NCBI RefSeq assembly: GCF_022379125.1
Contig: NC_061519.1
Location: 23,919,101 to 23,983,100, forward strand
Length of the DNA: 64,000 bases
Origin: Scophthalmus maximus
Lineage: Eukaryota
Reading direction: 5' to 3'
The notes below the pieces were generated by a model that did no database searches, was not told the origin of the DNA, and was given only the letters and a program-made list of their open reading frames with translations. Shown here in pieces: positions 35,293 through 59,904 of the stretch. Position 1 is the first letter of the stretch. Each line of letters starts with the position of its first letter. The translations under genes were made by a program, and so were the position numbers.

Positions 35293-35502
35293 CTCGGTTG
35301 CGTTCACGGCGAGTCCCAGGGCAACGTAACCCTTCGAGGTTCCTCTGAGTTTGAAGTACAGGTCGGTGCCGTTGGGGGCCGCCGGGGGGCCGGCGACCAC
35401 TGACGCAAACAGACAGGTCCCGTTTCCTGCCGGGTCGCAGGCGCCCGGTTGGTCCACGCACAGCGCCGTGACGCCACAACCCGCCCGGGTGACGTTCACC
35501 TG
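35293..35502 (-). CDS. DOMON-domain gene exon 2: QVNVTRAGCGVTALCVDQPGACDPAGNGTCLFASVVAGPPAAPNGTDLYFKLRGTSKGYVALGLAVNATE
   Basis: Acceptor ttgtccag|CAG, donor GAG|gtaacg; Cys spacing plus C-LF-S...YF-L-G...GYVA-G motif characteristic of DOMON domains (FRRS1/SDR2/FRRS1L-like); 3 NxT sequons. Confidence 0.7.
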
Positions 35503-36086
35503 CTGGACAACGAAAGAAAAAAGCCTTTCGTGTTGAAACACACCTGGAAATTTCATTTTGGTACATGTAGGGAAAGTTATAGACTAGGCTTTTTTTAAAC
35601 TTGACCCAAACTAGGGACTAAAACTCAAGAGGCCTCTGCCTCTACTACTTCAATTTGAATCAGAATTTTTCTTCTTTTTTTTTAAGTCATTCCATTATGA
35701 CTTCCTTAACACTGTGAAAGTGCAATATTGAATAACTGGAGTCATCAGCAACGGGGAAACAACTTGGTAGATGTGCAACACTAATGAAACAACACATCAA
35801 CTAATCAACATGTCTTAATATAACAGTGCAGAGAACTATGAGGAGAACGAGTTAAGACAACATAAACTAAAAGTCCTTGTGGTTTATAGCTATATAAACT
35901 TTAGGCCTTGAATAGTTTAGTTTCTCTAAGTGGGTGAATAATGTAGAGAGAAAAATTCTCAATCAAGATAAAGCCCATGGTCATTAAACAAATATTAAAA
36001 TGATTGTGTGCGCACAGTACAAAGCTCAAAATGACACGGTGGAGCTGCGTACTGTACCGAGGAGATTAAGGCCAATGAGAACCAAC

Positions 36087-40400: not shown

Positions 40401-41026
40401 ACAACATTTTTAGAATATCTAAAAGATACACTGATATCATACAATTCTGCATATAGATGCTTTTAAGGGCCAGGCAGTTCATTTTGGTTTTAGTCGACCA
40501 GGATGTTTAAGATTTCTGTTTCTTCTTCAAGAGCAAATAATAACATAATAACATTGTATTAGTGTAAAAACAGCAGCGTCTCTTTCCTCATCCAATACAT
40601 GGCACACATTGAACCCATTAATTCATACGTACAAAAACTATCAACAATATTCAACCGGGGCTTTTTGTGCCGTAGAAAGAAAGTTCTTGCTCTTAACACT
40701 TTTATTTTAAATAAAGTTTTGAGCAGCGACAACAACATCCCAATCAACTTTTGTGTCTTTCAGGTGAACTCTCTCTTGACATTAATTTTTTTAAGGCTTT
40801 TGTTGTTTTTATCGTTTGTTTTATTGATGTTATTTTCCTTATATTTCACTCGGTTCAGTTTTATTTTATTGCACTGTGTCTAATTTGAGGCTATAATTTC
40901 TAGGTCTTCATGTTGTAATCACTCTGTAAAGGAATAAATAACAGCTCACGTTGCTGATCTTGGTCTCGTCGTTGCGATGGCGTATCGCAATAAATAGAAA
41001 GTGTGGATTGTCGTTATCGATCGAAA

Positions 41027-42868
41027 CTAGATATTGAGTCCGTCCTCCTGCAGAGCTCGAGATCCCAGACGGCTGCACTCATGCCTTCTGTCTCTGTCGC
41101 TTCCTCTCCTTTGTCCCTCCCTCCTCCGACCCTCTCCATCCTCCCTGCTCTTCCTCCTCTCCTCCTCCTCCTCCCCGTCGCCTCCCGCTCTCTCAAACTG
41201 CCTCCTGGCGCTCTCCACCCTGCTCCCTCGTTTCTCGTCACGCTCTCCTCCGTGGCGACTCCTCTGCGACGCCGACTCCTCCCTGCTCTTCCTCCTCTCC
41301 TCCTCCTCCTCCCCCTCCTCGCCTCCCGCTCTCTCAAACTGCCTCCTGGCGCTCTCCACCCTGCTCCTTCGTTTCTCGTCACGCTCTCCTCCGTGGCGAC
41401 TCCTCTGCGACGCCGACTCCTCCCTTTCCCTCGCCGCCGCCGCCGCTTCGTGACTTCGATGCGACTCTTTCCTCGCGGCGCTTTTCCCGCCGTCTTCTCG
41501 TTTTGTCCATCTCTCCGTCTCTCGCGGTTGATCCCTCGCTTCTTTACTTTCTCTCCTCTCTCCTCTGCTCGCCTGGGCTCTCCAGTCTTTTGCTCCTCGC
41601 TCCTCCTCCTCCTCCTCCTCTGTCCTCCTCCGTCGCTCCGTCCTGTCACTTTCCTTTCTGGCGAGTCTCTCCTTGTCCGTTCTGTGTTCACTCCCCCCTT
41701 CTCCGTCTCGGTTGCTTCTGCTGCTGTGCCTCCCCACGCTCCCACTTTCCTCCTCTTTCTCTCTATTCACCGGTTTCCATTCGTGCCTTATCCCTCTTTC
41801 ATGCGCTCTGCCGCTCTGGCTCCTCTGACCTTCTCTCTCAGATTTCACCCTCTCTAAACTGGGGTTTCCACTCAAGTCTTCTCGCTTCGAATCACCCGAT
41901 TTACTCTCAGCCCCCTCCCGTTCTCTCACGTCCGCCCTTTTCTGTTTTTCCTCCGTCTTTTTATTCGCACCAGCATCTGCTTTTGCCTTGTCCTGCTTGC
42001 TCTCATATTTCTCTTTTACAGCTGTTATTCTGTTCTCGGTTTCTTTGTCTCTTTTGCTTCCTTTCTGAGATTGAGATTCTTTTAAAACTTCCTCTTTAGC
42101 AGCTTTGACCATGTTCTCATTTCCCTGCTCTTTGTCCTGATCTGGTGGCTTCACCAATTTGGATTCAGATTTGCTTTCTTCTTCCGTTTTACTTTCCTTC
42201 TTTCCATCATCTTCTCTTGTCTCCTCCTCCTCCTCCTCCTTGTTGTCCTTTTTCTCTTCATCTCCCTTTTCCTTTTTCTCCTTACTTTTCAGAGTTTCCT
42301 TCTCCAGCTCTTTGTTCTTCCTCTGCTCCTCCTCAATCTTCTTGTCCAGTTTCTCCTCCAGCAGGTCCAGCTCCTGGTCCAGCTCGGCCAGCTTCTTGGG
42401 ATCCGACTCAAAGTTGTCTTCGACCTCCACCTCGATCTCCTCGATCTCCTCGTACTCCTCCAGCTCGATGCCGTCCATGGTTTTCTGCAGCTGCGTCTTG
42501 ATCTTGTTCAGCTCCAGGAGACCGCCTTGAAGGTCTTTGCAAACGTCTCTGATCTTGGCGGCGAATTTGGTTTTGGCGCCTTTGCGGAGCTCGTGGGAGT
42601 CCTTGGCGAGGAAGAAAACATCCAGGGCCAGGAAGAGGGCCGACATGACCCCCGTGGTGACGCTGATGGCCTGGGCAGCTTTGGCGGCGCCGCCTGCGGC
42701 GCCCAGAACCTGCACGGTGCTGATGAGCTTGTCGGTGTTGATCATCAGCGCTTTGCCGGCGCGGCCGCCCTCCTTCATCACATGTTTGATGTTGTGGTTC
42801 ATGGCCTTTCTGGCAGCACTCTGAGAATATTTCTCAAAGTCCCACTCCTGCAGGGTGTCCATTCCTTC
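41027..42868 (-). CDS. ApoL-domain gene, last coding exon. The N-terminal roughly 180 aa carry the C-terminal half of the ApoL domain (EGMDTLQEWDFEKY...LGAAGGAAKAAQAISVTTGVMSALFLALDVFFLAKDSHELRKGAKTKFAAKIRDVCKDLQ). A roughly 430-aa E/K/R/D/S-rich low-complexity tail follows, with stop at 41027
   Basis: 611-aa minus ORF; acceptor cctcctctag|GAAGGAATG at 42868; residues SALFLALDVFFLAKDSHELRKGAKT align with the ApoL family C-terminal amphipathic region (human [33 protein letters not shown]); AATAAA-equivalent tttatt on + strand at about 40821/40861. Confidence 0.8.
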   Translation of the reverse strand, partial: EGMDTLQEWDFEKYSQSAARKAMNHNIKHVMKEGGRAGKALMINTDKLISTVQVLGAAGGAAKAAQAISVTTGVMSALFLALDVFFLAKDSHELRKGAKTKFAAKIRDVCKDLQGGLLELNKIKTQLQKTMDGIELEEYEEIEEIEVEVEDNFESDPKKLAELDQELDLLEEKLDKKIEEEQRKNKELEKETLKSKEKKEKGDEEKKDNKEEEEEETREDDGKKESKTEEESKSESKLVKPPDQDKEQGNENMVKAAKEEVLKESQSQKGSKRDKETENRITAVKEKYESKQDKAKADAGANKKTEEKQKRADVREREGAESKSGDSKREDLSGNPSLERVKSEREGQRSQSGRAHERGIRHEWKPVNREKEEESGSVGRHSSRSNRDGEGGSEHRTDKERLARKESDRTERRRRTEEEEEEERGAKDWRAQASRGERRESKEARDQPRETERWTKREDGGKSAARKESHRSHEAAAAAREREESASQRSRHGGERDEKRRSRVESARRQFERAGGEEGEEEEERRKSREESASQRSRHGGERDEKRGSRVESARRQFERAGGDGEEEEERRKSREDGEGRRREGQRRGSDRDRRHECSRLGSRALQEDGLNI

Positions 42869-43407
42869 CTAGAGGAGGACAGAGGGTCAACACAGTCCCA
42901 GAGAGGTTAATTCTTTTTTTTTTAAAGACACATTCATTTCAAAACTGTTACTACTCGGCATTATAGCACTCTTTCCCAAAGATTTCTGACCATAAAAGAA
43001 AAAAAGAGTCATCCGGAGATGACCAGCCAGCAGGGTTAATAAGACCCAGATTTATTGCAAAAGTGCATAATTTCAGGATATTTATTTCACATTTCTCAAC
43101 TGACCGACGCCCACAATGGTGCAGAAACGATGACTCAATCATTTGATTGTGTAATTTGTCAAACATAAAACAGCATTACACATCATCACACCTCCCCTGG
43201 TGTTTAGTTTTACTTGCTGTTACTGTTTTACGTCATTGTAAATTTAACATTTTTCGAGTGTCCAACGGCTGGTCGGACAAATCGTTGCCTCAAACTCACC
43301 CTGTGATGGTCCTTTTTAACTATCATGACATTTTAGAGACCAAATCTGAAAAGGTAAAAAAAAAAACAAGCTAATTCTCTTATCTATCTGTGCAACCATT
43401 TCCTCAC

Positions 43408-43822
43408 CTGCACGAACTCCATGCACTCTCTGATGTCCTTGATCTCGTCCTGGTAGTCCTGGATCATCTTCTCCAGCTTCTTCCGGTCCATGTTCGAGTG
43501 AACGGTGTCCGTGATGTTGGCCGTCGCCGAGGCGATGCTGCCCGCCGTCGCCACGCCGATCCCCACGGCCGTGACGATGATGGAGGCACCGAAGGTGAAA
43601 GGTGCCAGGATGAGCCCCGTGATCGTGGCCAAGCTACCCGCGACGCTGGCCACCCCGCCGCCCACGGCGGCCGTCACCGTTCGCTTGTGGAACTGATCCG
43701 AGGCGTCGGCCAGGGCCAGGAGCTCCAGGATGCGTTGCTGCAGCGACGCCCCCCGCTGGTTGAACAGGCGCACGAAGAGGCGAGCTGCCATGTAGACACG
43801 GTCAGCCGCCTGCTCCAGGGCC
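43408..43822 (-). CDS. ApoL-domain gene, penultimate exon: core ApoL domain (ALEQAADRVYMAARLFVRLFNQRGASLQQRILELLALADASDQFHKRTVTAAVGGGVASVAGSLATITGLILAPFTFGASIIVTAVGIGVATAGSIASATANITDTVHSNMDRKKLEKMIQDYQDEIKDIRECMEFVQ)
   Basis: Acceptor ccctgcag|G at 43822, donor CAG|gtgagg at 43408; Gly/Ala/Ser-rich hydrophobic hairpin LAD..HK..T.A.V.G..G..G...T..GL.LAP.T.G.S...TA.GIG is diagnostic of ApoL family (Pfam PF05461) membrane-insertion region; joins last exon in frame (VQ|EGMDT). Confidence 0.8.
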
Positions 43823-44491
43823 CTGCAGGGAGACGGAGAGACGAGAGCTGTGAGGGACGGACACTCAAGAGATAAAAGGTCTCAAACACACAAGTCTGAC
43901 AAACAGCAGTCGATTAATCAATCAGTTTGTTATAGCTGGCAACATTTCGAACATTGTTTCAGTCATTTTCGAAGAAGTACTAGAAAATTCCACATATTCT
44001 CTGGTTGTTTACCAACTTGAAAAAATGACTTCACAGAATTTATCTGTTTTCCCAATTTAAGTAATTTTTGGGGGGAAGTTGGTAGACAATTTTCTTTTTT
44101 CTCAAAAGGCAAAATTTGCAGAATCCATTTTGTTAGATATGATAATGAACTGAATTGGATTTTGGAGCATTGGTCGGATTAAGCAATTGAAGATGTCACC
44201 TTGGGCTCTGGGAAGTTTTGACTGACACTTTTTTCAATGTTAATTGATATTTTGTCGACCAAATGATCAACAGACATGAAAATAATCATCAGTTGCCACT
44301 GTACCTTTACGCATATGCCCCAAGTGACAGTTGCAGGTGGACACAGGAAGACATGAATATAAATAAATATTGGCATTTATTGTTTGGCAAAGAAATAGAT
44401 AGAGACAATTAAGAAATCCCCAAATTGCCAATTTTTTTTTTTTTAAGACAATAATTAAAAAAATAAAATAAATAAATAAAACTATAATTAC

Positions 44492-44543
44492 ATTTGCTCG
44501 TCTTCCTGCTGGAAATTGGACGTCTCGTTCCATTCTGTCCAAC
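44492..44543 (-). CDS. Candidate bridging exon ((G)WTEWNETSNFQQEDEQ(M)), supplies AT of the Met codon completed by G at 43822
   Basis: Acceptor gtttccag|, donor CAAAT|gtaatt; with a 1-nt carry-in gives an open frame and restores the frame of the ApoL-domain exon. Confidence 0.45.
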
Positions 44544-44664
44544 CTGGAAACGGGCAGCAACAAAAATACAATAAGTATAATTCATAAAATACATAAAAAA
44601 AGACACATTTATATATATTATATATATATATATTACAAATAAACAGTGAGAACAATCACACTTG

Positions 44665-44704
44665 CCTTTCACCGTGTTCCACCACTCTATCAGCTCATCA
44701 GTCT
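44665..44704 (-). CDS. Candidate exon ETDELIEWWNTVK(G) with GC-AG donor
   Basis: Acceptor ttgttttcag|GAG; donor AAAG|gcaagtg is the textbook GC-donor consensus (AG|GCAAGT); phase 1 end matches next candidate exon. Confidence 0.45.
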
Positions 44705-44766
44705 CCTGAAAACAAAGACATGTTATCCACGAAGAGAAAACTGATGTTCTCGTACATATCAAGCAC

Positions 44767-45011
<245 letters not shown>

Positions 45012-45289
45012 CTGGAGAACCAAATACAACAAGGACACGACTTTTAACACACGGTTCTGAATCTTTGAACTCTCGTACTGTTCTAGTTTGATTTAGATTT
45101 CTTTATTTTGTTTTTGTTATTTTGTCGACCACACACCGACGTTCCTTTTTTCCTTTTTTGAATGACAGGCTGATAACATATGACTACGTTTAAAAAGATG
45201 GTCAGAGTTTTTGACAAAGACTCTGTTGATATTATTTCTATAATATTTCTTTCTGTACATCTATTTTTTATAATATCCTTATGACCAAC

Positions 45290-45352
45290 CTGTGCCGGGT
45301 TCAGCTCCTGCATCTCCACAGCCTCCTCGATGAGAGACATCTCATCTGCGAA
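45290..45352 (-). CDS. Candidate 63-nt phase-0 exon FADEMSLIEEAVEMQELNPAQ (acidic, B-like)
   Basis: Acceptor tttttgaag|TTC, donor CAG|gttggt; open 21 codons. Confidence 0.4.
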
Positions 45353-45595
45353 CTTCAAAAACCATTCATGGAAAATGAAAAAATAAATTCAAAAAGTGGA
45401 CGAAGATCAAATGTAGAAACAGGATATATTCATCCGAGTCTTTTATTAACTTTTTATCCCCAACTAACGTATAAAAATGCAAAAAACTTTTGAAAGTAAC
45501 ATGTTCAGCATGTTCATGTTTATGTTCTTTGATGCAGTTAAAGAACAGGAACATGGAGCAAAACAGCAAAGTGAGACCGAGGAATCACTACGCAC

Positions 45596-45649
45596 CTGAG
45601 TGGTCCTGGGTATTTTGGGAAGAGTTTTCTTGATTCGGAACGACACAAC
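45596..45649 (-). CDS. Candidate 54-nt phase-0 exon VVSFRIKKTLPKIPRTTQ (degenerate A-type: SFRIKKTLPK vs FSGMFKKSPK)
   Basis: Acceptor tttcttcag|GTT, donor CAG|gtgcgt; 18 open codons. Confidence 0.5.
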
Positions 45650-45785
45650 CTGAAGAAATAAAAAGAAGAAAACATCATGTTTTGCAGCTCAAACGCAGCA
45701 CAGCAACTTGTGCTTATATCATCTGTTGAAATAAATGCCATGTTTTCGGTATTTCTGTCATTTTTCCGAGTGAGCGACGACTCAC

Positions 45786-45857
45786 TCGTCTTTTCTTCTT
45801 GATCGTCCTCCTGCGTCTCAGCCCTCCTCCCTCTGGCGCCTCCACGTCCACGCTCTC
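45786..45857 (-). CDS. Candidate 72-nt phase-0 exon ESVDVEAPEGGGLRRRRTIKKKRR (degenerate A-type)
   Basis: Acceptor ccgttgcag|GAG, strong donor CGA|gtgagt; exactly 24 codons like canonical A exons. An alternative read-through would give a stop at 45714 (possible terminal exon of a separate array gene). Confidence 0.5.
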
Positions 45858-47431
45858 CTGCAACGGAAACCCCAAAAACATTTTGTTCAACAGCAGCAGA
45901 GCAACACGCAGGTGATCCCGCGAGGTTATCGCCTTAACCAGCTCACACAGCAACTCTCTTATTATACTATCATCATTTTAAAATGATTTATCTTTCAGAA
46001 TTTCTCTCTGTATCCATCATGAAAACAGTAGAGAATGTGAAACTCAAACCTTTCAAATCAAATAACTATGTATAGAGAGCAGAGGACTGGAAATTCAAGA
46101 AAAATTCTATTCCTCACTCTAATTATTCGACTTAAACGAGATCTCACACATCTCAGCGTTGATGGTACCGTACCTGTGGTACCACAGTTCTGGGCGTCCT
46201 CCTGAACATGCCGGCAAATCCTCCTTTTGTCTCCTGTCACGATGGAAAATCACAAAACATTTGCATGAGTCACAAGAAAGATAAGAAAACTTCCTCATTC
46301 ATCTAAACAGGTTAACACACTGAACACGACGCTCACCTTCGGGGCGTTTGTAGCTTCAAGAAGATTCTCAGTACTGGCGGAAGATTCTCCGTGTGCTGAC
46401 TGATCCTCCCGAAAAGCCATGAAATAAAATAAAAACATGCCATCAATTAGTTTAAAAGGTTTTTATTTCAGTAAACTGAAAATACCGATGTTGAAAATGT
46501 ATTTTGAACGTTCACCTGCAGAGAATCTGGTCTAGTCTCCCATTTCACAGCAGGTCTTGTCCCGTTATTGCTCATTTTAAATCTCATTTAAAATGCTACG
46601 TCTTTGATACAATTCAGGCTGATTCTATTCCATGATCATATTAAAACGTATCATTAGGGCCCGAGCCACTGGCAAGCATTGCCAGGCGAGGACGTATTGC
46701 AATTGAAAGAAATATTATTAATTCACGCTGCGACCTGCCCGAAAATCTGCACACGCATCAGAACCGGTGAACAATTTTGTATTTAGGGGTCTCGGGCATT
46801 GGCCTGCCAAAATGACTGGATAGAGCCCCTTACCACAATTATTCCCTAGCCTTAGAATTGATGTAGATCGACAAAATCTTGTTATCTTATTGTATTTGTG
46901 TCTTATTTCTTAATAAATCATCTTCTTTGAGTGTTGCTTTCCTTTGCCTCGAGTGCAAAGCACATTGGCTCGACTCCTGTTGTTTATTAATCTGCCATAT
47001 AAATACATTTATCTGGACATCTAACGCTCTGCGAGTCGCTTTCCTCAAACATTTGACTTCAAGAAGCTGCAAAGACAGAAAAACCTGGCTTTTTTATGAA
47101 AATTCATCTTTTCTCTGGAGTTTTTTGTGTTTTTGTTCGTGTGGTCGACCGATCGGAGGCATTCAAATATGTGCAGGGAACAAAACATGATGGTGAAAGC
47201 TCAATATTCGCTCCGTCAGCTGCATCCACAGACGTGGAGAAGCTCTCACCTCAGCAGCGTCGGCCAGACTGTCCCTGCTGGAGGACAGTTCCTCTGAGCA
47301 ATTGAGTGGATCCTGGAGAAATACATTTGGGAGGCATTCAGGTGGGTTGAATTTGATGATTCATACAATCATGATCATCTTAACAATGTAAATGAGAGCT
47401 TCAGCGGACGTATGAACAAATCCGGTTTCAC

Positions 47432-47503
47432 CTTAGTAGCGACGGAGCGCGGAGCCGGTTTGGGAGACTTCTTGAAGATCCCTGCGAGTCCTCCAGTCTT
47501 CTC
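47432..47503 (-). CDS. Array exon, A-type: EKTGGLAGIFKKSPKPAPRSVATK (72 nt, phase 0)
   Basis: Acceptor gtgtgtcag|GAG, donor AAG|gtgaaa; coordinates verified base by base. Confidence 0.65.
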
Positions 47504-50500
47504 CTGACACACGTGCAAACATCCACACATTAATAAATCAACAATCGGTAGCAGATAAGAAGGAGACAGGCTGATATTGTGATCGTCAGATTTTCTTTTT
47601 TACCTTCGATGTGTTTGCCTCCAACAGATTTTCGCAACTGGCAGATATTTTCTTCTCCTCGCCTGTGTTCGATTCCTGAACAGGAAATTAAATTGATTAT
47701 ATGCTATAATAATAATTATAATAATAATATAAACATTCCGTGAAGATTATTACTGTACCTCATCTGCTGTTCCCTCTGCTGGTTTCTTCTTAAACATCCC
47801 ACTGAAAATACTCTTCTCCTGAAAACGTTAAACGCAGACACATCAGGTTTGACTGTCATAGATAAATTACAGTACAATTTAAATTTTGTGGCATGCTGAA
47901 ATTTTTTTGCATATTTGAGTATACATGTTTGTATGTACGTGTTACTCTCCGTTTTACTCTGCCCTGTAATATTTGTACTCTTATATTTCTTTCCTATTTT
48001 TATGTGATCTTCAAACTGAGTTTAATTGTTTCCTATTATTTAACTTCACTTCTTCATTATTATCTCTAAAAGATAGTGCCATCTAAATATAGTTTTATTA
48101 TTATTATTATTATTATCTATGTTGATGGGGGAGTTGTCAAGTTTTATTAAAGTTGTGTGGCTCTAATACCCTAAATCTGATGTTTTCCGAATAAGAAAGA
48201 AACATCAGCGCAAACTTCAGTTTGCTTTTCAAACGCACAGGAACAGTTGTGTTGCACGATTCACCGTATTAAAACATGTGGCGTCATTTCACAGTGCTGA
48301 CATTTCAGATCTGGTTGAATAACCAACATTTCTCGACACATCACCTTGGTGTTGGTGTTTTCGGACAGACTGTCGGTACTCGCCGACAGCTCCTTCTGCT
48401 CCTCTTTGTCCTGAATAAAGAAAAACAATGGTCAGTTGGTAAATATGTGTCCGCACAGACGAGGATAATAAGAACATGAAACTAGTCGTGCTCTCACGTC
48501 TGCAGCAGCTTCATCTCCAGTCGCTTTGGGAGGTTTCTTGGGAAGAAGTCCACTGAAGAGACCGCCTTTCTCCTGACAAACACAAAGAGACACGCGTGGA
48601 TGGATTACGTTCCACCACTACTGTACTATGGATGGGTGCAAAAAACAACCACAAAGGGGGGGGGGTCCTTTCACATGTCTGTGCCTGTTGACTCATAATT
48701 GGTCCGTGTGGTGATGAGAAATGACTCTACAGTCATCAACCTGGTTTCATTTTGGACAGCGGCTTGCGAGGAGAATAAAAAGCATAATTCAAAGACCAAA
48801 CGCAGCTGATGAACATGTTTCCAAGCATCCTGTCAAATTGTTTTCTGCCTTTCAGGCATCTCAGCACACCTTTAAAAAAAAAAAGAAAGAACTAGCGTGT
48901 AGTGTGTTGAAACATGCTCTGACCTGTTACTTTACAACCTCAGATTCACATTATTGTCGCGTGTTCGAAATGGAGCTGTGTATAATTTAAAAAGTCTTTC
49001 AACACAAAATGCATGGTTTAAAGTAAAGAGAGAAGATCAAGACACGATTTTCCTAATGCATCTATATAAGATGAACATTCAGAGGAAGATGCTGCTGAGT
49101 GAAGAAGGAGATGATGAAGACGAGTTTTTGACAAACGATAACTTATGAGTGGTTATGACGGAGGTCGTCAGACACTGACCTCGTCAAACAGGTTGTCGAT
49201 GCTGGATGATCTTTTGAAGATGCCGGCCAGGCCTCCCTTTTTCTCCTGAAACACAAACTGCAGTTACTCCAATATTCAGAAATACTCAGTTTTATCGATC
49301 TTCACTGATACATTCAGCGAAAGAGAGAAAATCCAGAAAGCGACTTTGTTTCCGCGTGAACCACACAAGGACAACAACACAAGTGGATTTTCAAAGTTAG
49401 ATATTTAGTAAGTGAAAAATATAGTATTTTAATTTTATTTGACCCTTGAAGTTATTTTACAGATTAATAATTTACAAACAAACATGTTCAGGTTAATAAA
49501 ATAGGATATGATATGTCCATAACACAACATAGATTTCCAAATAGAATAGAATCCCAAATCTTTATTGAACATTTTAACTATTTTTCTAGAATCAGGTTAA
49601 ATTTTTCATAATTATTAGGCATCAATTTGCTTTAACAGTCTTGTTTTTAAATACAGATACTTACTTTGAACAAATGTTTACATACTATTATATGTCTTAT
49701 TTATAATTATATGTATACATGGAAGAAACTGTGTAATGTAAACTTTTTCTTTTTTATTTTGCTGATAATTCTTCTCTTATTTGTATTTTAAAGTATCTTA
49801 TAAGTATTTTTCTACAAGCATTAGTACTTTTGCTTAAGTAAAGACTCTTCAGCCACTGAGAAAGGATGTGAGTGTTTTCATCTTGAATAAGGTCCAGTTT
49901 AATGTGTTGGATACTTTGCTCTAACATACTTATTTTCCATTAATTCTTCTTTAATATTCAGGATTTTTTCTCTCTAGTTTTTGTCTTTGTAACTTTTTTT
50001 TATAAAGTGCAGCTGAATGTTGACCAGAACTAACAGGAAGCAGCAAACACATCAAAAACCTGTTTCTACAATCTGATTTGTCCAGAGGAGAGTGAGTGAA
50101 GAAAGGTTCTAGTTTGTTTGTCAGTCGCACCTTCAGGACGGTGGTGTCAGTCAGATTCTCACAGCTCCCCGACAACTGTTTTTCTTTGTTCCTCTCCTGC
50201 TCCTGAATTCGAACCAGAGAAGAGTCAAAGAGTCAATATCAGCTCCATCCTCTGATGATTTTAGATTGTTTATTCTTATTTTCATGCCTCTGGTTCATTC
50301 TCAGTACCTTCTCCGCTGCGCGCTCCGCTGGCTTCTGCGGCTTCTTGAACATGTTGCTGAAAATGCTTTTCTCCTACAAAATAATATTGGCGTCGGTGAA
50401 CATTTCTGAAGACAGTTTTGTCTGCAGGTGTTGTGTGCCGCATTGGACCTCGCTCACCTTGGTGGCGTTGTTCTCCGACAGGTCGTCGCTGCTGGTCGAC

Positions 50501-50589
50501 AGCTCGTCCTGGGCCTCGCTTTCCTGAAACAAGATTTTTTTTTAATTCCAAGTGATGCTGGGGGAAAACGAGTGGAAGATTGCGAGGCA

Positions 50590-51660
50590 GTTTGACGCCA
50601 GCTCTGAACAGACGGCGACATCTACTCACCGGCGACTCCGTCTTCTCTCCTGACGCTCTGGGCGTCTTTCTGAGGAGTCCGCTGAACACACCTGCACCTT
50701 TCTCCTGATGGAAACAGACGAGAAAAAGGGCTTCAGGACGTTTAAATATCTTGAGATAAAACTGTGTCACTGACCTGTTTGTTCTCAGATTGTTATTAAA
50801 AAGTTACTAACGGGAAAATCCTTAACTCTAAACCTCTCTTACCTTTTCTCTGATCTCAGACAGACTCTCGTTGCTGGCTGCCAGCTCCGTCTGCAGCGAG
50901 TCTCTATCCTGAAACACACGGAGTCACATAAATGCACCGACGAGTCCCCGCGTCACAAGATAAGAAACCGAACATGTTAAGGAATGTTTTTTTGCTTTTT
51001 TAAATGCAAGAGGTAAGAACAGGGAAGCTGTTGTTAAAAATCAACAACAAAGAACTTATTCAAGAGTGTGTCAAGATGTAATACCGTCACAAAAATGAAT
51101 CATTTGGTCTAAAGGTAATCTAAAGGCAAGGAGCAAAAAGTATCAGGGCCACTTATTGGGGAAAAAAATATGAGATTCAGAAAATGAGGTTGGGGAATTT
51201 TTTGTGGAAAAAAAAGTCATATTAAAAGAAGGAAGTCGTAATTTCACAACAACCAAGTCAGAATATTACGGGAATAAAGAGGTCATTTTAGGCCACGCGT
51301 CATTTTACCTAAGATCAGTAAAGATTAGTCCGTCGCCTGCGTCAAAATGAGGAATGTGGATCATCTTGTTAAGTTATGCTTTAAATAAAGGTTCGGTGTT
51401 ATACAAATGGTGAAATCTCTGAACAGACGGCGACATCTACTCACCGGCGACTCCGTCTTCTCTCCTGACGCTCTGGGCGTCTTTCTGAGGAGTCCGCTGA
51501 ACACACCTGCACCTTTCTCCTCTTTCTACCCACGAGACAGAAAGAGCTTTAGGATGAGACGGACCTTTACATGTTTCAATATGAAACCGTTCCACTGACC
51601 TGTTTGCTCTCCGATAGATGTTCACTGCTGCCTGAGAGCTCATGATCGGGACTTTCATCC
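50590..51660. repeat. Tandem segmental duplication inside the exon array (unit about 830 bp: 50590-51416 roughly equals 51417-51660+), duplicating an A exon and flanking intron
   Basis: Long near-identical string ctgaacagacggcgacatctactcaccggcgactccgtcttctctcctgacgctctgggcgtctttctgaggagtccgctgaacacacctgcacctttctcct present at 50590-50700 and 51417-51525. Confidence 0.8.
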
Positions 51661-54600
51661 TGTAAAAGGAAAAAACCCAAAAAACTGAGTTTAAAAGTTG
51701 TGGTAAACTTTAACTTCTTTATTAAATAATTCTTATAACAATAATTTGTTACTTTAATGGTACAAAATGTATGGAAATTCAAATGTGCAGTGAATCTACA
51801 TCTGTGCACAGATTTGAATCAGTATAAAAAAAATAAAAAAAAACCGCTATCATACAGTGAAGTGTTTAGAGAGGAAAATGGGGAAATCATGTACTTTTAC
51901 GTTGTTATTCCTAATTTCTCACAAAGTCAATCTGGAAATTGAAGTTTCAGATACGAGGCTTGAGAAACTATTCTTTCAAATGTTGAAAGTGGAAACACAA
52001 TGAAGACACGCAGGTCCATGTGTTGACACAGTTACCTCCTCAGATTCAGAAGCGTCCATAGCTTTCGCCGCCTTTTTGAATATTCCACCAAATATTCCGC
52101 CTTTTTCCTGAAACACACACACACACACAATAAAAAAAAAAACCGTGAGCGGCATCGAAGAAAGGGAAAGGGGATTGTTTCGAAGGCACGCTCGACGAGC
52201 TCACCTTGGTGCTGTTCTCAGACAGACCTTCGCGGCTGGCGGACAGCTCGCCGCCTTGAAGCAGCTTTTCCAAAGGGAGAGATTGAAAAGTAGATTATAA
52301 CCTGATACCGATTAGAGGTTTTTACTTGCATTCATCACAAACAGGATACCCAGGATAAGAACTCTATTCAGTCCAGCGTTTCTTCGGTGTTTTCATGACA
52401 AGGGGTTCGGTCACTTTGTCTGAAATATAGGCCAGATAACACTTTCATGAAAAACAACACTTAACCTGCAGAGGGAAAAGAGCAGAGAGACTTTCTCCCT
52501 GTTTCTGGGGCATTCGCTACAGGGACGGTCGACATGGATACCTCATAACTCATTAATCATGATTAATTTATTCCTCATACACACTCAGATTACACCAAAC
52601 TGTAACCCCCTTCCTAAAACTACTGGACCCCTGAAATATCTCTTTAAACCAAATCACACACAAGCTATTTCATACGATCTCCTTTTGGAAACTAATGTGA
52701 TGACTAATGTGATATCTCTTCACTCCCATTCACTGAAACTGTTTGGACCCCCCGCGGGGAGGCCAACCCCTCATGAGGAAAACCTCTGTGATGAACATTA
52801 GTTCAGGGATTCCAACCGGCAGCCTCGTTGTCACAAGGGAAACTTGTTGTGCAACGTTCAGAACAACTCCTGATCTACTGGAGTAGCTGAGCAGGAAACG
52901 CAGGAGACGCTTCTCACTTTCTCGTCTGCAGGTTTGGACGGCTTCTTGAACATTCCACTGAACGCACCTCCCTTTTCCTGCAAAACAAGTTGTTGTGTTT
53001 TAGGTTACTTCTTCCCAACAATTCCTGTATAATATCTGCAGGATTTCACACACACACACACAAAAAAAGCAAGCAGTATTCATAAGTTGAAATCAGATTG
53101 ACAGACACATTTCGAAAGGCTCCAGAGAGCGTTTCTCACGACCACACTGACCTTGGCGTGGGCCGCCTCCGACAGACTGTCGTTGCTCGCCGACAGATCT
53201 TTATGTGCCGACAGGTTCTCCTGGAACAACAGACCAAAAAGTGTCAGAAACAAAAAAACAGTAGGAGCAAAGATCAAAGGTCAAGTTCAACAAGAAGAAT
53301 ATCGTCTAACACAAACACATTTTCCAAGATGTCTCCACAAATAATAGAGCTAGAAAGTTAATCTGAATCTTATATAGATCATAAAATGATACCCCATCAT
53401 ATATTGTACGATAAGTGACGTCATGCATAGTTAAAAAATGCACTATATAGGACTGTAAATACGATTTGAATTATAAAGATCAAAAAATTATTTATGATCA
53501 TATAGTATGAATGACGTCATCAGTACAAATCTCTATGAAGTTGCCTTATCACTATATGAATAAGTTAGCATTGCCTGATTGGGGTGTGTACAGTGTGTGC
53601 AGGGTATGAATCGCCCCTTCGATGCTTTACATGATCTAATCTAGCTCCATGATAAACGACTATTTACTGTGAGTTCGCAGTTTTTGTTTGTTTGTCACAG
53701 AGAATAATTTGGGACATTTGGGGGCAGTTGCCCGTCTTTGCCAGGTTCATAGTCCAGCCTTGATTTACGGCAAAGATAATAAATGGAAATATTCTTGCTG
53801 AAAGAAAAGGATGGTCGTGATGCTTTGTATACTGTATATGGTGTCATGTACTGTAAAACATGGATCACAAGATAGATCGATGTGTATATATATAGATATA
53901 TATATATCTATATATATATAAAAACACACCCACATTGATGATAGATTAAAACGTCTGGTGAACAAAGTGTAATGAGAAAAGTGGTGTGACCTGTTTTAAC
54001 TTTGATAATCAATGAAATAAGAGGGTATGAGTCAGATGACTAGCCCCTGGTCTCCTCCTCATTTAGGGAGGAAACTGTTTCGCTCTTCCTCCTTTCCACT
54101 GAAACCCGCGTGTCATGGGTGTCATGGGACGTGCTGCTTTTTGGGCAAAATTCAAAAGGAGTGACGACCGCACCCAAACAGCTCCAACCGGCCCCCCGAG
54201 CCAGATTAGCTCTATGATGTCACCCAGTTGTCACGCAGCACAATGAAGCAGCGGTAATGTGCATTGCCGGTTGAGAGCATCTCCATGGAAACTATGCGGA
54301 AGCTGTACCTCTCCGGTTGTTCTCGGAGTCTTTCTGAGGAGCCCGCTGAACAGACCAGCTTTCTCCTGCAGGACGCAGAGAGATCATATTGAAAGCAAAC
54401 TGACTTGACTTGAATCTTCATTGTTTTGTCACGGTTCGACTCGTGCGACTCACCTTGTTGTCCGACAGGCTGTCGGTGCTGGCAGAGAGTTCGCCGTGCA
54501 GCGGCTCCGCGGCCTAAAACCACAACACACAAAAAATGTGACTCAACCACTGTGAACATGAACGCAGACCTGAAACCAGTCACCAGAAACAACAGACAGA

Positions 54601-54865
54601 CAGACGCAGCAACGTGTTTCCACACGTCGCACAAAAGCCTCCTTACTGCAGATCTCGTGTTTACAAGCGGCGGATCGAGCGGATCAAGTGTTGTTACATG
54701 TTACGTAACAACATTGTTTGGAAGATTGGAGGAATCTCATGCAGCTCCTGCAGCCAGAGAACATGTTCAGAGGCTCTTTTTTTTGGTGCCTTATTTTGAA
54801 ATGAAAAACATAATTAAAGCCAAGGACGAAATGCAAAAGACTTCAAAAGTAATAAAAAACATTAC

Positions 54866-54937
54866 CTCCTCCAGTCGTGGGCCTTCGGACATTTTGGGAG
54901 ATTTCTTGAACATCCCACTGAAAACGCCTCCTTTCTC
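54866..54937 (-). CDS. Array exon, A-type: EKGGVFSGMFKKSPKMSEGPRLEE (72 nt, phase 0)
   Basis: Acceptor gtatcag|GAG, donor GAG|gtaatg; coordinates verified. Confidence 0.65.
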
Positions 54938-55116
54938 CTGATACACAAAGAAAATATTACACGCCGACATAAAGTTTGAAGCTCATTAAAAATCATGCAG
55001 GTACTTATAAAGCTTTATGGGTGGATTATATTGTATACAGATGAGGGACAGTTAGGACTTTTACAGAAAATCCTTTCCAGTTTGCAAAAAAAATCTTAAT
55101 TCTAAACCTCTCTTAC

Positions 55117-55182
55117 TTTGTCTTTGCTCTCGGACAGACTCTCTGTGCTGGCTGCCAGCTCCATCTGCAGCGACTCTTTATC
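55117..55182 (-). CDS. Array exon, B-type: DKESLQMELAASTESLSESKDK (66 nt, phase 0)
   Basis: Acceptor gtgtttcag|GAT, donor AAA|gtaaga; near-duplicate of exon at 50830-50895 (DRDSLQTELAASNESLSEIREK). Confidence 0.65.
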
Positions 55183-56211
55183 CTGAAACACAAGGAGTCA
55201 AATAAATGAAGCAAAAGTGACGTCAAAGCGCCGACCCGTCTGTTTCAGATCGGTCATCAATCATAAGAACGGAATGTTAAGGAATGTTTTAAAATGCAAG
55301 AGGTACAAAACAGGGAAGCTGTTGTTAAAGATCCACGACAAAGAACTTATTCAAGTGTGTGTAAAGATGTGAGTCCATCACATTATAGGAGAAAAAGTCA
55401 TTCAAAAAAGAAGAGTCATACATGATTGTCTCGATCTTAGAGAAGAAATATCAAAGACGGTGGGGTAAACCTAAAGTATTTATTGGCCATAAAACATAGT
55501 TAAAGAAAGAATAAAAAAAAAATCTTAATCCACATCCGCACCAAACGTTAAGGAGTTCGTTCCCCATGTTCCCTCCGCCGAGTCTTGTGAAAATTGGTTT
55601 TGTAATTTTTGAAAAAATAGTCCAACAAACAAATACGACAATCAGACGCGGGTGAAAACATAAAGAACTTTCCTTGGCAGATGTAATAAACTGTATTTTA
55701 CTCTCCAACATATTCACACGTTGAACTGAAGCTATATAAAAATGAATTCATGACTCCGACAGTAGAGGATTAAAGCTCTTATTGGTCCGGACACATTCGA
55801 CCTCTACTTCACCATGTCTGGTGACGGCGTGGAGAATATTTGTTTTAGCAATGTTCAAGATTTGGACATGATCACCCGTCACTGTACCTGCCCAGGTGGC
55901 CCCTCCACAGGGACCTTGGGAGACTTGCGGCGAATCCCGCCGAAAAATCCTCCTTTGTCCTGGTGACGTCAAAAGGGATGAATTCACGCACGTTCACAAT
56001 GATTCTAATGTTGCATCATAATCATGTCCTGCCAACTCACCTTCGAGCTTTCAGTCAGATTTTCATTGCTGCCCGACGCGTCATCGCGTAGAGACCGTTG
56101 GTCCTGAAACACACAAACGGACAAGTTCAATGTGACGATCACGTCGCAGGGTAAAAAATGACGTCAATTTATGTCACTGCACACAAACTGGCATGTTTCA
56201 GCCGTCACCTC

Positions 56212-56283
56212 GTCAGCCTGAGCAGCATCTGCTGCTTTCGGAGTTTTCTTGAACATCGCGCTGAATATTCCTCCCTTTTCCTG
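56212..56283 (-). CDS. Array exon, A-type: EKGGIFSAMFKKTPKAADAAQADE
   Basis: Acceptor gatttcag|GAA, donor GAG|gtgacg. Confidence 0.6.
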
Positions 56284-56368
56284 AAATCATGAACAGATTC
56301 ATCCTGATCAAGCTCGGGTCTGTGTGGCCACTGCGACGGAAGATGAACGCTCATCTCTGCCGCTCACC

Positions 56369-56434
56369 TTGTTGCCGTTTTCAGACAGACTGTCGCTGCT
56401 CGCCGACAGCTTGCTCTGCGCGCCCAGACTCTCC
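56369..56434 (-). CDS. Array exon, B-type: ESLGAQSKLSASSDSLSENGNK
   Basis: Acceptor gtcgcag|GAG, donor AAG|gtgagc. Confidence 0.6.
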
Positions 56435-58761: not shown

Positions 58762-58908
<147 letters not shown>

Positions 58909-59811: not shown

Positions 59812-59849
59812 AGTACCACGACGCACGTGTCAATGACGAGGAAGATATT

Positions 59850-59862
<13 letters not shown>

Positions 59863-59902: not shown

Positions 59903-59904
<2 letters not shown>

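What the first reader, a model, noticed from the sequence alone, without database searches (positions are those of the whole stretch)
41027..42350. ApoL terminal exon carries an unusual roughly 430-aa E/K/R/D/S-rich low-complexity tail with internal tandem duplication
After the conserved ApoL C-terminal amphipathic region (…KGAKTKFAAKIRDVCKDLQGGLLELNKIKTQLQ) the ORF continues through KEKE-like and RS/RD/RE-like low-complexity sequence. It contains a near-perfect tandem duplication of about 120 nt (…ESASQRSRHGGERDEKR.SRVESARRQFERAGG…EEEEERRKSRE… twice, about 41100-41420). Canonical ApoL proteins end shortly after the amphipathic helix. This tail is highly charged (RS/RE/RD dipeptides) and might mediate nucleic-acid or protein interaction, or might be young and disordered.
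Basis: seen in the sequence. Interest (0 to 1): 0.5.

Follow-up and report, generated by a model that had tools for sequence, protein, structure and literature searches.

The report
Conserved disordered charged tail of fish Apold1a
The long charged tail is real and translated, but it is the normal, evolutionarily old and mostly disordered C-terminal extension of the fish gene apold1a; only the 47-codon in-frame tandem duplication inside it is particular to this genome.

Summary
On the minus strand, 42868..41027 is one terminal exon of 613 codons plus TAG. Its first ~128 residues finish a Pfam ApoL domain. The remaining ~485 residues are 55% charged (E23, R15, K11, S9 %). The duplication is 141 + 138 nt (47 + 46 codons), not ~120 nt. 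The copies differ by 2 substitutions and one 3-nt indel.

The gene is not a canonical ApoL. It is teleost apold1a, about 20 kb with more than 25 exons. Percomorph and flatfish orthologues (990-1650 aa) carry the same tail as a single exon. They share six conserved islands, the same K-rich to R-rich polarity, and a near-invariant C-terminus L-x-E-D-G-L-(N/Y)-I.

The tail is coding. Chance predicts 17.5 stops and none occur. dN/dS is 0.21-0.38, against 0.07-0.12 for the domain part. Nearly all indels are multiples of 3. Two spliced transcript contigs from other fishes keep the whole tail.

AlphaFold2 predicts disorder except for two helices. One is a leucine-zipper-like helix. The other is the ESARRQFERAGG island, which is the element duplicated here.

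My reading is a cytosolic disordered scaffold carrying short docking and phosphorylation motifs (inferred). The tail is ordinary for this gene family, but it is not described in the searchable literature.

The parts
41027..42868 (-). Terminal coding exon of apold1a (613 codons plus TAG stop at 41029..41027)
   Evidence: Acceptor CTAG|GAAGGAATG sits at 42869/42868 and joins in phase 0 to the previous exon's donor GTGCAG|GTGAGG. A single tblastn HSP to Cottoperca P0001 aa 453-1029 covers 42865..41030.
42485..42868 (-). C-terminal third of the ApoL domain (exon aa 1-128), including a hydrophobic segment at aa ~62-92 and the amphipathic helix ...KGAKTKFAAKIRDVCKDLQGGLLELNKIKTQLQ
   Evidence: Pfam PF05461, E = 4.5e-8, profile positions 222-297 of 298. 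Hydropathy scan. dN/dS is 0.07-0.12.
42416..42469 (-). Acidic stretch IELEEYEEIEEIEVEVED (aa 134-151), conserved in all teleost Apold1 proteins
   Evidence: Alignments.
42260..42406 (-). Conserved leucine-zipper-like helix SDPKKLAELDQELDLLEEKLDKK, running on into K/E-rich sequence (aa 155-203). Residues 158-214 fit my KEKE-motif criteria.
   Evidence: AlphaFold2 helix 157-203 with pLDDT 87-90 for residues 161-190. Residues D156, L160, A161, L163, E166 and E171 are invariant in 34 sequences. KEKE test.
41879..42259 (-). K/E-rich proximal part of the disordered tail (aa ~204-330). It holds the conserved island VKAAKEEVLKE...ETENRITAVKEK (42109..42008).
   Evidence: Composition by block. pLDDT below 50. 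Island seen in the alignment.
41057..41878 (-). R/E/S-rich distal part of the disordered tail (aa ~331-604). Conserved islands: GRHSSRSNRD (41734..41705), ERGAKDWRAQ (41602..41573), RKESHRSHE (41473..41447) and RRGSDRD (41110..41090). There are seven R[RK]x[ST] sites.
41279..41419 (-). Tandem duplication, copy 1 (141 nt, 47 codons): ESASQRSRHGGERDEKRRSRVESARRQFERAGGEEGEEEEERRKSRE
   Evidence: TRF and copy alignment. It contains the ESARRQFERAGG island, which lies in AlphaFold2 helix 472-532 with peak pLDDT 92.
41141..41278 (-). Tandem duplication, copy 2 (138 nt, 46 codons). It differs from copy 1 by AGG>GGG (R>G), GAG>GAC (E>D) and one 3-nt deletion.
   Evidence: The extra copy is absent from all 18 orthologues aligned and from Solea P0121.
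41030..41056 (-). Conserved extreme C-terminus ALQEDGLNI-COOH (family consensus L-x-E-D-G-L-[N/Y]-I)
   Evidence: 47 of the 132 retrieved homologues end in [GA]LxI. Within those 47 the counts are D(-4) 43, G(-3) 46, L(-2) 47 and I(0) 47.
40701..41026 (-). Probable 3' UTR, with AATAAA signals starting at 40870, 40825 and 40706
   Evidence: Composition changes abruptly at the stop, from 8% T to 32% T. Inferred; there are no transcript data for this species.
43408..43821 (-). Preceding exon: the core of the ApoL domain, with a 54-residue hydrophobic hairpin
   Evidence: Pfam ApoL, E = 4.8e-22. 89-91% identical to orthologues. Hydropathy scan.
44491..61466 (-). N-terminal part of the same gene: more than 25 small exons encoding repeats of a ...KEKGGIFSGMFKKTPKP... 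motif
   Evidence: tblastn of Solea senegalensis P0121 (1627 aa) and other orthologues. Exon boundaries were not refined.

Best explanation
The region is the terminal exon of teleost apold1a, the fish counterpart of the endothelial membrane protein APOLD1/VERGE.

Shown here:
- The ~485-residue tail is genuinely translated.
- It is an old feature of this gene family, not an oddity of this locus.
- Its architecture is conserved. In order, it has an acidic patch, a leucine-zipper-like amphipathic helix, a lysine/glutamate-rich variable spacer, and an arginine/glutamate/serine-rich segment dotted with short conserved islands. Those islands include RRxS kinase-type sites and a short predicted helix, ESARRQFERAGG. 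The tail ends in a near-invariant EDGL(N/Y)I C-terminus.
- Apart from the two helices it is predicted to be disordered.

Inferred mechanism:
- The tail stays in the cytosol. A 485-residue stretch that is 55% charged is unlikely to be moved across a membrane.
- It acts as a long flexible scaffold that links the membrane-embedded ApoL module to partner proteins through short linear motifs.
- The zipper helix would serve self-association or regulation.
- The C-terminal hydrophobic-x-hydrophobic end fits the sequence pattern of a class II PDZ ligand. This would suit the junctional and cytoskeletal role reported for mammalian APOLD1.
- The RRxS sites would allow regulation by phosphorylation.

Length change: the tail's length evolves by in-frame slippage and tandem duplication in the 77%-purine coding strand. 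In this genome a recent 47-codon duplication has doubled the ESARRQFERAGG helix island. That makes this tail (480 aa past the TMDG landmark) marginally the longest by that measure among the homologues retrieved in the first search (next longest 479 aa).
For: Identity of the gene:
- Pfam ApoL is found on both exons.
- The best homologues are named apold1a, si:rp71-1g18.13 or 'ApoL domain containing 1a'.
- The gene maps over 61466..41027.
- The DOMON-like downstream neighbour is the same as in Chanos and Myxocyprinus read-through models.

The tail is coding:
- No stops occur where 17.5 are expected, P about 2e-8. The other sense frames have 11 and 25 stops.
- The tail is a single uninterrupted exon in Cottoperca, Anarhichas and Pelmatolapia genomic DNA.
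- Tail dN/dS is 0.21-0.38, against 0.07-0.12 for the ApoL part.
- Gaps in codon-unaware nucleotide alignments are multiples of 3 in 15/15, 15/15, 9/9, 17/17, 12/16 and 9/12 cases.
- The C-terminal motif is conserved after 330-480 residues of variable sequence.

Transcript evidence:
- Logan contig L004 lacks four introns relative to Anarhichas genomic DNA. Its last block is collinear with the genome through the whole tail and ~1 kb of 3' UTR.
- In contig L007 three exons abut exactly at the window's junctions (237|238 and 651|652), and the full tail is retained.

Architecture:
- Conserved islands appear in the alignment.
- K/(K+R) is 0.68-1.0 in the proximal half and 0.18-0.54 in the distal half in all 31 orthologues checked.
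- AlphaFold2 gives pLDDT below 50 for 396 of 613 residues, but confident helices at 157-203 and 472-532.

The tail is exclusive to this family: a tail-only phmmer search against 1.84 billion representatives gave 9 hits. Pfam confirmed an ApoL domain in the six hits that were new, and the other three were already ApoL-annotated hits of the first search.

The duplication is lineage-specific: all aligned orthologues have one copy.

Mammalian context: APOLD1 localises to endothelial cell contacts and Weibel-Palade bodies, and its loss disturbs cell junctions and cytoskeletal architecture. It is described as having three transmembrane domains and a coiled coil (PMC9973481; PMC11726835).
Against: - There are no transcript or protein data for the species of the window itself.
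- Some database models of orthologues end early inside the tail or read through into the neighbouring gene (P0031, P0104, P0063, P0059, P0092). Isoforms without the tail therefore cannot be excluded. Weak donor-like sites exist at 42285, 41895, 41829 and 41770.
- Every functional statement is inferred from sequence patterns only. This covers the cytosolic location, the PDZ-type ligand, phosphorylation, and self-association through the zipper helix.
- dN/dS values from protein-guided alignments of low-complexity sequence are biased downward, and dS is near saturation for the more distant pairs.
- Indels in (GAG)n-like sequence tend to be multiples of 3 even without selection.
- Cypriniform apold1a does without the long tail, and a transcript supports this (L006). 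The same appears true of the apold1b models. The long tail is therefore dispensable for the core function.
Confidence: 0.72

Rival explanations
1. The tail is mostly neutral low-complexity filler. Slippage in a purine-rich exon inflates and deflates a disordered spacer. Only the zipper helix next to the domain, and perhaps the last few residues, matter. The duplication has no functional consequence.
For: - Tail length varies from 330 to 480 aa among orthologues, with many indels.
- Poeciliids have an independent tandem expansion.
- Cypriniform apold1a lacks the long tail (transcript L006) and the apold1b models also end without it.
- Tail identity is only 50-58% where the domain is ~90% identical.
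Against: - dN/dS is well below 1 along the tail.
- Six islands are conserved at fixed order across orders of fishes, and the K-to-R polarity is kept in all 31 orthologues, including Pelmatolapia, where GC3 shows no matching gradient.
- A confident predicted helix lies deep inside the tail.
Confidence: 0.2
2. The arginine-rich distal half is an RS-like or arginine-rich mixed-charge domain. It would bind nucleic acid or drive condensate formation.
For: The distal 270 residues are rich in R, E, D and S. The tail has 39 RE/ER/RD/DR dipeptides and 16 RS/SR dipeptides.
Against: - There are no runs of RS: the longest is 3 residues, and RS/SR dipeptides account for only 4.9% of tail residues.
- No RNA-binding domain is found in the full-length orthologues scanned.
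- The tail is tethered to a membrane-embedded ApoL module with a hydrophobic hairpin.
- There is one short basic cluster (RRRR) and no clear nuclear localisation signal.
Confidence: 0.06
3. In this species the tail is not part of the main protein. An internal donor soon after the ApoL domain would splice it out, or the tandem duplication would be an assembly artefact.
For: Some orthologue models end early or differently (P0104, P0063, P0084, P0031, P0008). Weak donor-like GT sites exist in the exon. No reads are available to check the 141-nt repeat.
Against: - The open frame, the in-frame indels and the conserved C-terminus only make sense if the tail is translated.
- Two spliced transcripts from other fishes keep it.
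- The tail is 77% purine, so it offers no polypyrimidine tract for an internal acceptor.
- The two copies differ by 2 substitutions and a codon indel, unlike a simple assembly stutter.
Confidence: 0.05

Closest known systems
Teleost apold1a orthologues. Examples: Solea senegalensis LOC122772061 (XP_043885659.1, 1627 aa), Cottoperca gobio LOC115022310 (1029 aa), Pelmatolapia mariae apold1a (1015 aa), Cynoglossus semilaevis 'Apolipoprotein L domain containing 1a'.
   Same: - The same ApoL domain, ~90% identical.
- The same exon junctions.
- The same single-exon tail, with the same order of islands, K-to-R polarity and EDGL(N/Y)I end.
   Different: They carry one copy of the 47-residue ESASQRS...RRKSRE unit, and this genome has two. 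Tail identity is only 50-64%. All are computer-predicted, uncharacterised proteins, and no paper in the searchable library mentions apold1a.
Mammalian APOLD1 / VERGE
   Same: It is an ApoL-domain membrane protein with a hydrophobic hairpin, a third hydrophobic segment and a coiled-coil or leucine-zipper helix. It is reported at endothelial junctions and Weibel-Palade bodies (PMC9973481, PMC11726835).
   Different: Human APOLD1 is about 279 aa (my own knowledge of UniProt Q96LR9, not checked here). It has neither the ~900-aa N-terminal repeat region nor the ~450-aa charged tail. One-to-one orthology with the fish genes rests on database naming and was not tested by a tree here.
Cypriniform apold1a and teleost apold1b
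   Same: The same ApoL domain, acidic patch and SDPxKLAxLExEL helix.
   Different: Tails are only 45-75 aa in cypriniforms. The Danio-like full-length transcript L006 ends ...EESKSESKLCKL. The apold1b models stop inside the helix (...KKLAQLEE).
Canonical APOL1-6
   Same: The Pfam ApoL fold, and the profile ends at the same amphipathic helix.
   Different: The canonical ApoL profile ends at that helix. The window gene belongs to the distant APOLD1 branch (PMC8557400).
KEKE motifs and ER/K single alpha-helices
   Same: Residues 158-214 satisfy my implementation of the KEKE criteria (57 aa, 68% K/E/D, no W/Y/F/P). AlphaFold2 predicts residues 157-203 as one long helix.
   Different: Only this proximal part qualifies. 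My crude i/i+4 salt-bridge score is modest (0.1-0.2). The helix also has a hydrophobic heptad stripe, so it may pair with another helix rather than stand alone. The KEKE definition is recalled from memory.
SR-protein RS domains and arginine-rich mixed-charge domains
   Same: The distal half is rich in R with E, D and S.
   Different: There are no RS runs and no RNA-recognition motif, and the tail is anchored to a membrane protein.
Class II PDZ-binding C-termini (hydrophobic-x-hydrophobic-COOH)
   Same: L-(N/Y/D)-I-COOH fits the pattern and is invariant at positions -2 and 0 in 47 of 47 tails that end this way.
   Different: This is a pattern match only. No partner is known and binding could not be tested.

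Membership tests
ApoL family (Pfam PF05461) | Significant match to the ApoL profile above the gathering score | tested here: met
   The terminal exon scores 33.3 bits (cut-off 25.9) over profile positions 222-297. The preceding exon scores 79.2 bits over profile positions 51-172.
ApoL family (Pfam PF05461) | Hydrophobic helix hairpin able to insert into membranes | tested here: met
   The hydropathy scan finds a 54-residue hydrophobic segment in exon 43821..43408 and a further one at aa ~62-92 of the terminal exon. Actual insertion was not tested.
Teleost apold1a gene family | Best database matches over the whole exon are apold1a proteins | tested here: met
   All 120 listed hits of the first search carry ApoL. 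Many are named apold1a or ApoL domain containing 1a. No tree or reciprocal search was done.
Teleost apold1a gene family | Shared gene structure: many N-terminal repeat mini-exons, two ApoL exons, and one large terminal exon | tested here: met
   tblastn maps of P0001, P0007, P0008, P0031 and P0121 onto the window. The same terminal-exon structure is seen in L001-L003.
Teleost apold1a gene family | Long tail with ordered conserved islands and an EDGL(N/Y)I C-terminus (non-ostariophysan members) | tested here: met
Teleost apold1a gene family | Conserved neighbourhood | tested here: met
   A DOMON-like exon at 35296..35505 on the same strand matches the downstream gene fused in the Chanos and Myxocyprinus models. 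Only this one neighbour was checked.
SR / RS-domain proteins | Extended runs of RS/SR dipeptides, usually with an RNA-recognition motif | tested here: not met
   The longest run is 3 residues and RS/SR dipeptides make up 4.9% of tail residues. Pfam finds only ApoL.
KEKE motif | At least 12 residues, more than 60% K+E/D, no W/Y/F/P, no 5 like charges in a row (definition recalled from memory) | tested here: met
   Residues 158-214. This applies only to the proximal part of the tail.
ER/K single alpha-helix | Long isolated helix stabilised by i/i+4 E-K/R salt bridges, without a hydrophobic seam | tested here: inconclusive
   AlphaFold2 helix 157-203 has pLDDT ~88. However, it carries an L160/L163/L167/L170/L174 heptad stripe, and my salt-bridge score is low.
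Class II PDZ ligand | C-terminal hydrophobic-x-hydrophobic-COOH | tested here: met
   LNI-COOH here. L(-2) and I(0) are present in 47 of 47 tails that end this way.
Class II PDZ ligand | Demonstrated binding to a PDZ domain | not testable with these tools
   Needs peptide-array or pull-down experiments.
Intrinsically disordered region | Low predicted order and low-complexity, high-charge composition | tested here: met
   pLDDT is below 50 over 209-471 (apart from a few isolated residues) and 536-610. The fraction of charged residues is 0.55.

The most novel reading that the evidence does not exclude
The Apold1a tail would be a regulated cytosolic scaffold that exists only in fishes. Its invariant EDGL(N/Y)I C-terminus would dock a PDZ-type junctional or cytoskeletal adaptor. 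The zipper helix and the ESARRQFERAGG helix would bind further partners. RRxS phosphorylation would tune these contacts. Tandem duplications, such as the one here and the one in poeciliids, would change the number of binding sites. Together with the N-terminal array of more than 20 FSGMFKKTPK motifs, this would turn a small membrane-remodelling ApoL module into a giant multivalent linker, a role that the 279-aa mammalian protein must fulfil in another way.
Probability: 0.2. Interest if true: 0.45.

Novelty: new member of a known kind. Interest (0 to 1): 0.27.

Why it matters
The main value is as a correction. The locus should be labelled apold1a, not a canonical ApoL with an aberrant tail. The tail should be kept in the gene model.

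There is a modest biological point. Fish Apold1a proteins are 4-6 times longer than mammalian APOLD1, a vascular protein linked to a bleeding disorder. Large disordered regions flank the ApoL module on both sides. The searchable literature says nothing about them.

The conserved C-terminal motif, the zipper helix and the RRxS sites give concrete, testable handles on how the ApoL module might connect to junctions or the cytoskeleton. The low-complexity tail also explains why automated pipelines give orthologues misleading names such as neurofilament, myosin, eIF3A, futsch and myb-like.

Tried and rejected
1. A tail-only word-indexed search (after a frame error) returned only 2 hits, because low-complexity words saturated the 8000-candidate limit. 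It was uninformative. The exhaustive phmmer search replaced it.
2. Sequence search of the PDB with the exon product found nothing.
3. Pfam at E up to 10 on full-length Solea P0121 found nothing besides ApoL. In particular there is no WH2 hit for the N-terminal FKKTPK repeats and no domain in the tail.
4. An exact look-up of the window ORF in public assemblies found nothing. The source species is therefore not represented, and I could not check whether close relatives share the duplication.
5. Logan contig L005 (P0030) turned out to retain an intron, so I did not use it as transcript evidence.
6. P0088 shares 'EESKSESKL' with the window, and I suspected a tail-removing splice isoform. It is instead a Danio-like full-length transcript with a naturally short tail.
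7. The Albula tails (280-320 aa, ending REPLSI) lack the percomorph islands under my regular expressions. I therefore do not claim the tail is homologous back to the base of teleosts.
8. I did not run a structure-library search, because the model is mostly low-confidence and matches would be meaningless.
9. The literature search for apold1a returned zero papers. The APOL-evolution paper does not discuss fish genes.
Full report
**1. What is in the sequence.**
On the minus strand a 611-codon ORF runs from 42862 to the TAG at 41029..41027. The exon itself begins at 42868, behind a good acceptor (CCTCTGTCCTCCTCTAG|GAAGGAATGGAC). It joins in phase 0 to the donor GTGCAG|GTGAGG of the exon at 43821..43408. 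Both exons hit Pfam ApoL (PF05461). The upstream exon covers profile positions 51-172 (E = 4.8e-22). The terminal exon covers positions 222-297 of 298 (E = 4.5e-8).

The ORF then continues for 485 residues:
- Composition is E 22.9%, R 14.8%, K 11.3%, S 9.3%, G 7.8% and D 6.4%.
- 55% of residues are charged, and the net charge is almost zero.
- The coding strand of the tail is 77% purine with 8.4% T.

**2. The tandem duplication.**
TRF reports one array at 41139..41425 with period 141, 2.1 copies, 96% matches and score 537. This is the strongest tandem repeat in the 64-kb window. Copy 1 is 41419..41279 (141 nt, 47 codons). Copy 2 is 41278..41141 (138 nt, 46 codons). They differ by two substitutions (R>G and E>D) and one 3-nt indel inside a GAG run. 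Both are in frame. The left flank and both copy ends share ...GGGAG|GA, which fits slippage or unequal exchange between short purine repeats. Otherwise the description is right.

**3. Is the open frame more than a by-product of T-poor sequence?**
Yes. The tail's own base composition predicts 17.5 stop codons in 485 codons, with P(none) about 2e-8. None of 5000 shuffles was open. The other two sense frames contain 11 and 25 stops. Codon positions have distinct compositions. Composition switches abruptly to AT-rich sequence right after the stop, with AATAAA signals 160-320 nt downstream.

**4. What gene this is.**
A search with the exon product returned 396 proteins. All 120 listed carry ApoL and come from teleosts. 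Many are named apold1a, 'apolipoprotein L domain containing 1a' or si:rp71-1g18.13. Percomorph and flatfish proteins are 990-1650 aa. The closest tail belongs to Solea senegalensis LOC122772061 (XP_043885659.1, 1627 aa) at 64% identity.

Mapping these proteins onto the window shows one gene from ~61466 to 41027 on the minus strand. It has more than 25 small N-terminal exons, two ApoL exons and the large terminal exon. The next gene downstream on the same strand has a DOMON-like exon at 35296..35505. It matches the gene fused to apold1a in read-through models from Chanos and Myxocyprinus, so the neighbourhood is conserved. There is no second ApoL gene in the window. The locus is thus apold1a, the fish relative of mammalian APOLD1/VERGE, and not a canonical ApoL.

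**5. The tail is a family feature.**
Tails past the TMDG landmark measure 330-480 aa in these fishes. The window's tail, at 480 aa, is marginally the longest by that measure among the 120 homologues tabulated (next longest 479 aa).

A 19-sequence alignment shows the same order of elements everywhere (window positions):
- an acidic patch, EVEEYEEIEEVEVEVED;
- a helix, SDPKKLAELEQELDLLEEKLDKK;
- a variable K/E spacer;
- VKAAKEEVLKE...KDKETENRITAGKEK;
- RRHSSRS;
- EEERGVKDWRAEMAK;
- RKESHRSH;
- RGSRVESARRKFERAGGEE;
- RRGSDRE;
- the C-terminal motif.

The proximal half is lysine-rich and the distal half arginine-rich in all 31 orthologues checked: K/(K+R) is 0.68-1.0 against 0.18-0.54. This includes Pelmatolapia, where third-position GC shows no parallel gradient, so the polarity is not simply a mutational bias.

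Every aligned orthologue has a single copy of the 47-residue unit, so the duplication is specific to the lineage of this genome. Poeciliids have a different, independent tandem expansion in the K-rich part.

Cypriniform apold1a has only 45-75 residues after the helix. A full-length Danio-like transcript contig confirms this (L006). The apold1b models end inside the helix.

A tail-only exhaustive phmmer search of 1.84 billion representatives gave just nine hits. Pfam confirmed ApoL in the six new ones, and the other three were already ApoL-annotated hits of the first search. The tail is therefore not a module shared with other families.

**6. Evidence that the tail is translated and constrained.**
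In genomic DNA of Cottoperca gobio, Anarhichas minor and Pelmatolapia mariae the tail is one uninterrupted exon that ends at the conserved motif.

Nei-Gojobori estimates give dN/dS of 0.21-0.38 for the tail and 0.07-0.12 for the ApoL part. The least saturated pair, Cottoperca-Anarhichas, has tail dS 0.44 and dN/dS 0.38.

In plain nucleotide alignments that know nothing of codons, gaps are multiples of three in 15/15, 15/15, 9/9 and 17/17 cases for four pairs. For the two most divergent pairs the counts are 12/16 and 9/12.

Caveats: protein-guided alignment of low-complexity sequence lowers dN/dS. Triplet repeats also slip in threes without selection. The conserved C-terminus after hundreds of variable residues does not depend on either caveat.

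**7.
Logan contig L004 (SRR28473478; its protein clusters with a Lycodopsis pacificus protein) aligns to Anarhichas genomic DNA in five blocks. Four introns are missing. The last block is collinear with the genome through the whole tail, the stop and ~1 kb of 3' UTR.

In contig L007 (SRR14563179) the counterparts of three window exons abut exactly (237|238 and 651|652). The ORF runs through a complete tail ending in DGLNI.

So in two other fishes the mature mRNA keeps the tail. The frame in the window is unbroken from domain to C-terminus, as single HSPs show, so there is no frameshift. I could not test the window's own species, because its ORF is not in the public collections.

Some database models of orthologues stop early or read into the neighbouring gene. 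Weak donor-like sites exist at 42285, 41895, 41829 and 41770. Minor tail-less isoforms therefore remain possible.

**8. Structure.**
AlphaFold2 with a 34-sequence alignment gives mean pLDDT 50, and 396 of 613 residues fall below 50. Within the tail, two elements are predicted with confidence:
- Helix 157-203 has pLDDT 87-90 over residues 161-190.
- Helix 472-532 peaks at pLDDT 92 over 501-510, the SRVESARRQFERAGG island in copy 1 of the duplication.

The first helix carries leucines at 160, 163, 167, 170 and 174, a 3-4 heptad spacing read directly from the sequence. It contains residues invariant in all 34 sequences. Residues 158-214 meet my implementation of the KEKE-motif criteria.

The tail has seven R[RK]x[ST] sites, and RRGS at 587-590 is conserved in most orthologues. 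It is not an RS domain: the longest RS run is 3 residues and RS/SR dipeptides cover 4.9% of tail residues. Neither the PDB by sequence nor Pfam recognises anything in the tail.

**9. How it most likely works.**
Shown: the tail is a translated, old, mostly disordered polyampholyte with two helices, ordered conserved islands and an invariant C-terminus, attached to a membrane-inserting ApoL module.

Inferred:
- The tail is cytosolic, because translocating 485 residues that are 55% charged, with no signal peptide in view, is unlikely. The even larger N-terminal repeat region is probably cytosolic too.
- The tail acts as a flexible scaffold whose short motifs recruit partners.
- The zipper helix would serve self-association or control of the neighbouring ApoL helices. 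A review proposes antiparallel pairing between the LZ2 helix and helix 5 in APOLD1 (PMC11726835).
- The hydrophobic-x-hydrophobic C-terminus is a candidate class II PDZ ligand.
- The RRxS sites are candidate regulatory phosphorylation sites.

This fits what is published for mammalian APOLD1, which is found at endothelial cell contacts and Weibel-Palade bodies. Its loss disturbs junctions and cytoskeletal architecture (PMC9973481). No step of this mechanism was tested. The duplication doubles one predicted helix island and could double a binding site, or it could be neutral.

**10. Rivals.**
- Mostly neutral filler with only the helix and the end under selection: plausible for the linkers, but the islands, the polarity and dN/dS speak against it for the whole tail.
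- RS-like or mixed-charge nucleic-acid or condensate domain: the composition is vaguely similar and the defining features are not met.
- Tail spliced out, or the duplication an assembly artefact, in this species: unlikely on comparative grounds but not excluded without reads.

**11. Comparison and novelty.**
The locus is a member of the teleost apold1a gene family, whose long-tailed proteins already sit in RefSeq, Ensembl and UniProt as uncharacterised predictions. Low-complexity matches often give them misleading names such as neurofilament medium polypeptide, myosin-1, eIF3A-like, myb-like X and futsch.

Relative to mammalian APOLD1 (about 279 aa by my own recollection, not checked here), the fish proteins have huge disordered extensions on both sides. 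No paper in the searchable library mentions apold1a.

The finding is therefore a new member of a known kind, with a small lineage-specific variant (the 47-codon duplication). Interest is low to moderate. The useful outputs are a correct label and gene model, and a set of testable motifs.

Noticed in passing
window 44491-61466 (-), e.g. 49180-49248, 52036-52110, 54866-54940, 56209-56283: The N-terminal part of the same gene consists of more than 25 mini-exons. Each encodes a copy of a motif like LSASNDSLSEN..KEKGG(I/L)FSG(M/L)FKK(T/S)PKP. In Solea the array spans ~900 aa. The FKKTPK/LLKKTPK core recalls the LKKT actin-binding core of WH2/thymosin motifs, which would be interesting given APOLD1's link to the cytoskeleton. 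Pfam finds no WH2 match even at E up to 10.
   Followed up: partly
window 35296-35505 (-) and ORF 32425-32889 (-): The downstream neighbour on the same strand is a DOMON-like gene. Its exon matches the C-terminal part of apold1a read-through or fusion gene models in Myxocyprinus (P0092) and Chanos (P0059), which carry Pfam DOMON. The 154-aa ORF at 32425-32889 has no Pfam hit.
   Followed up: partly
orthologues P0040, P0047, P0041 (Gambusia, Xiphophorus): Poeciliid Apold1a tails carry an independent tandem expansion of about 5-8 copies of EEPKKSKESVLDIFKIKKEKKEEKS in the K-rich segment. The tail has therefore expanded by duplication more than once.
   Followed up: no
database names of orthologues: Orthologues are auto-named neurofilament medium polypeptide, myb-like protein X, eIF3 subunit A-like, myosin-1, forkhead-associated domain-containing protein 1 and microtubule-associated futsch. 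These names are artefacts of low-complexity similarity.
   Followed up: yes
window 41014-41745 (-), 41003-41857 (+), 41503-42099 (+): Long ORFs of 198-284 aa also lie open in other frames and on the opposite strand of the tail region. This is expected from the polypurine/polypyrimidine composition. They have no support as genes.
   Followed up: partly
window 44770-44939, 58773-58907, 58282-58573, 16350-16882, 37319-37412, 40276-40291: Simple repeats occur in introns and flanks: (AC)85, (CA)67, a 21/33-nt ACC-rich minisatellite, a long TATC array, five copies of an 18-nt unit, and a G16 run about 740 nt downstream of the stop.
   Followed up: no
L007 1-240 (Logan SRR14563179 transcript contig): Upstream of the ApoL exons, this transcript has the EMAAYPTEE exon in a different frame from the main ORF. 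This could be alternative splicing of the N-terminal mini-exons or an assembly error.
   Followed up: no
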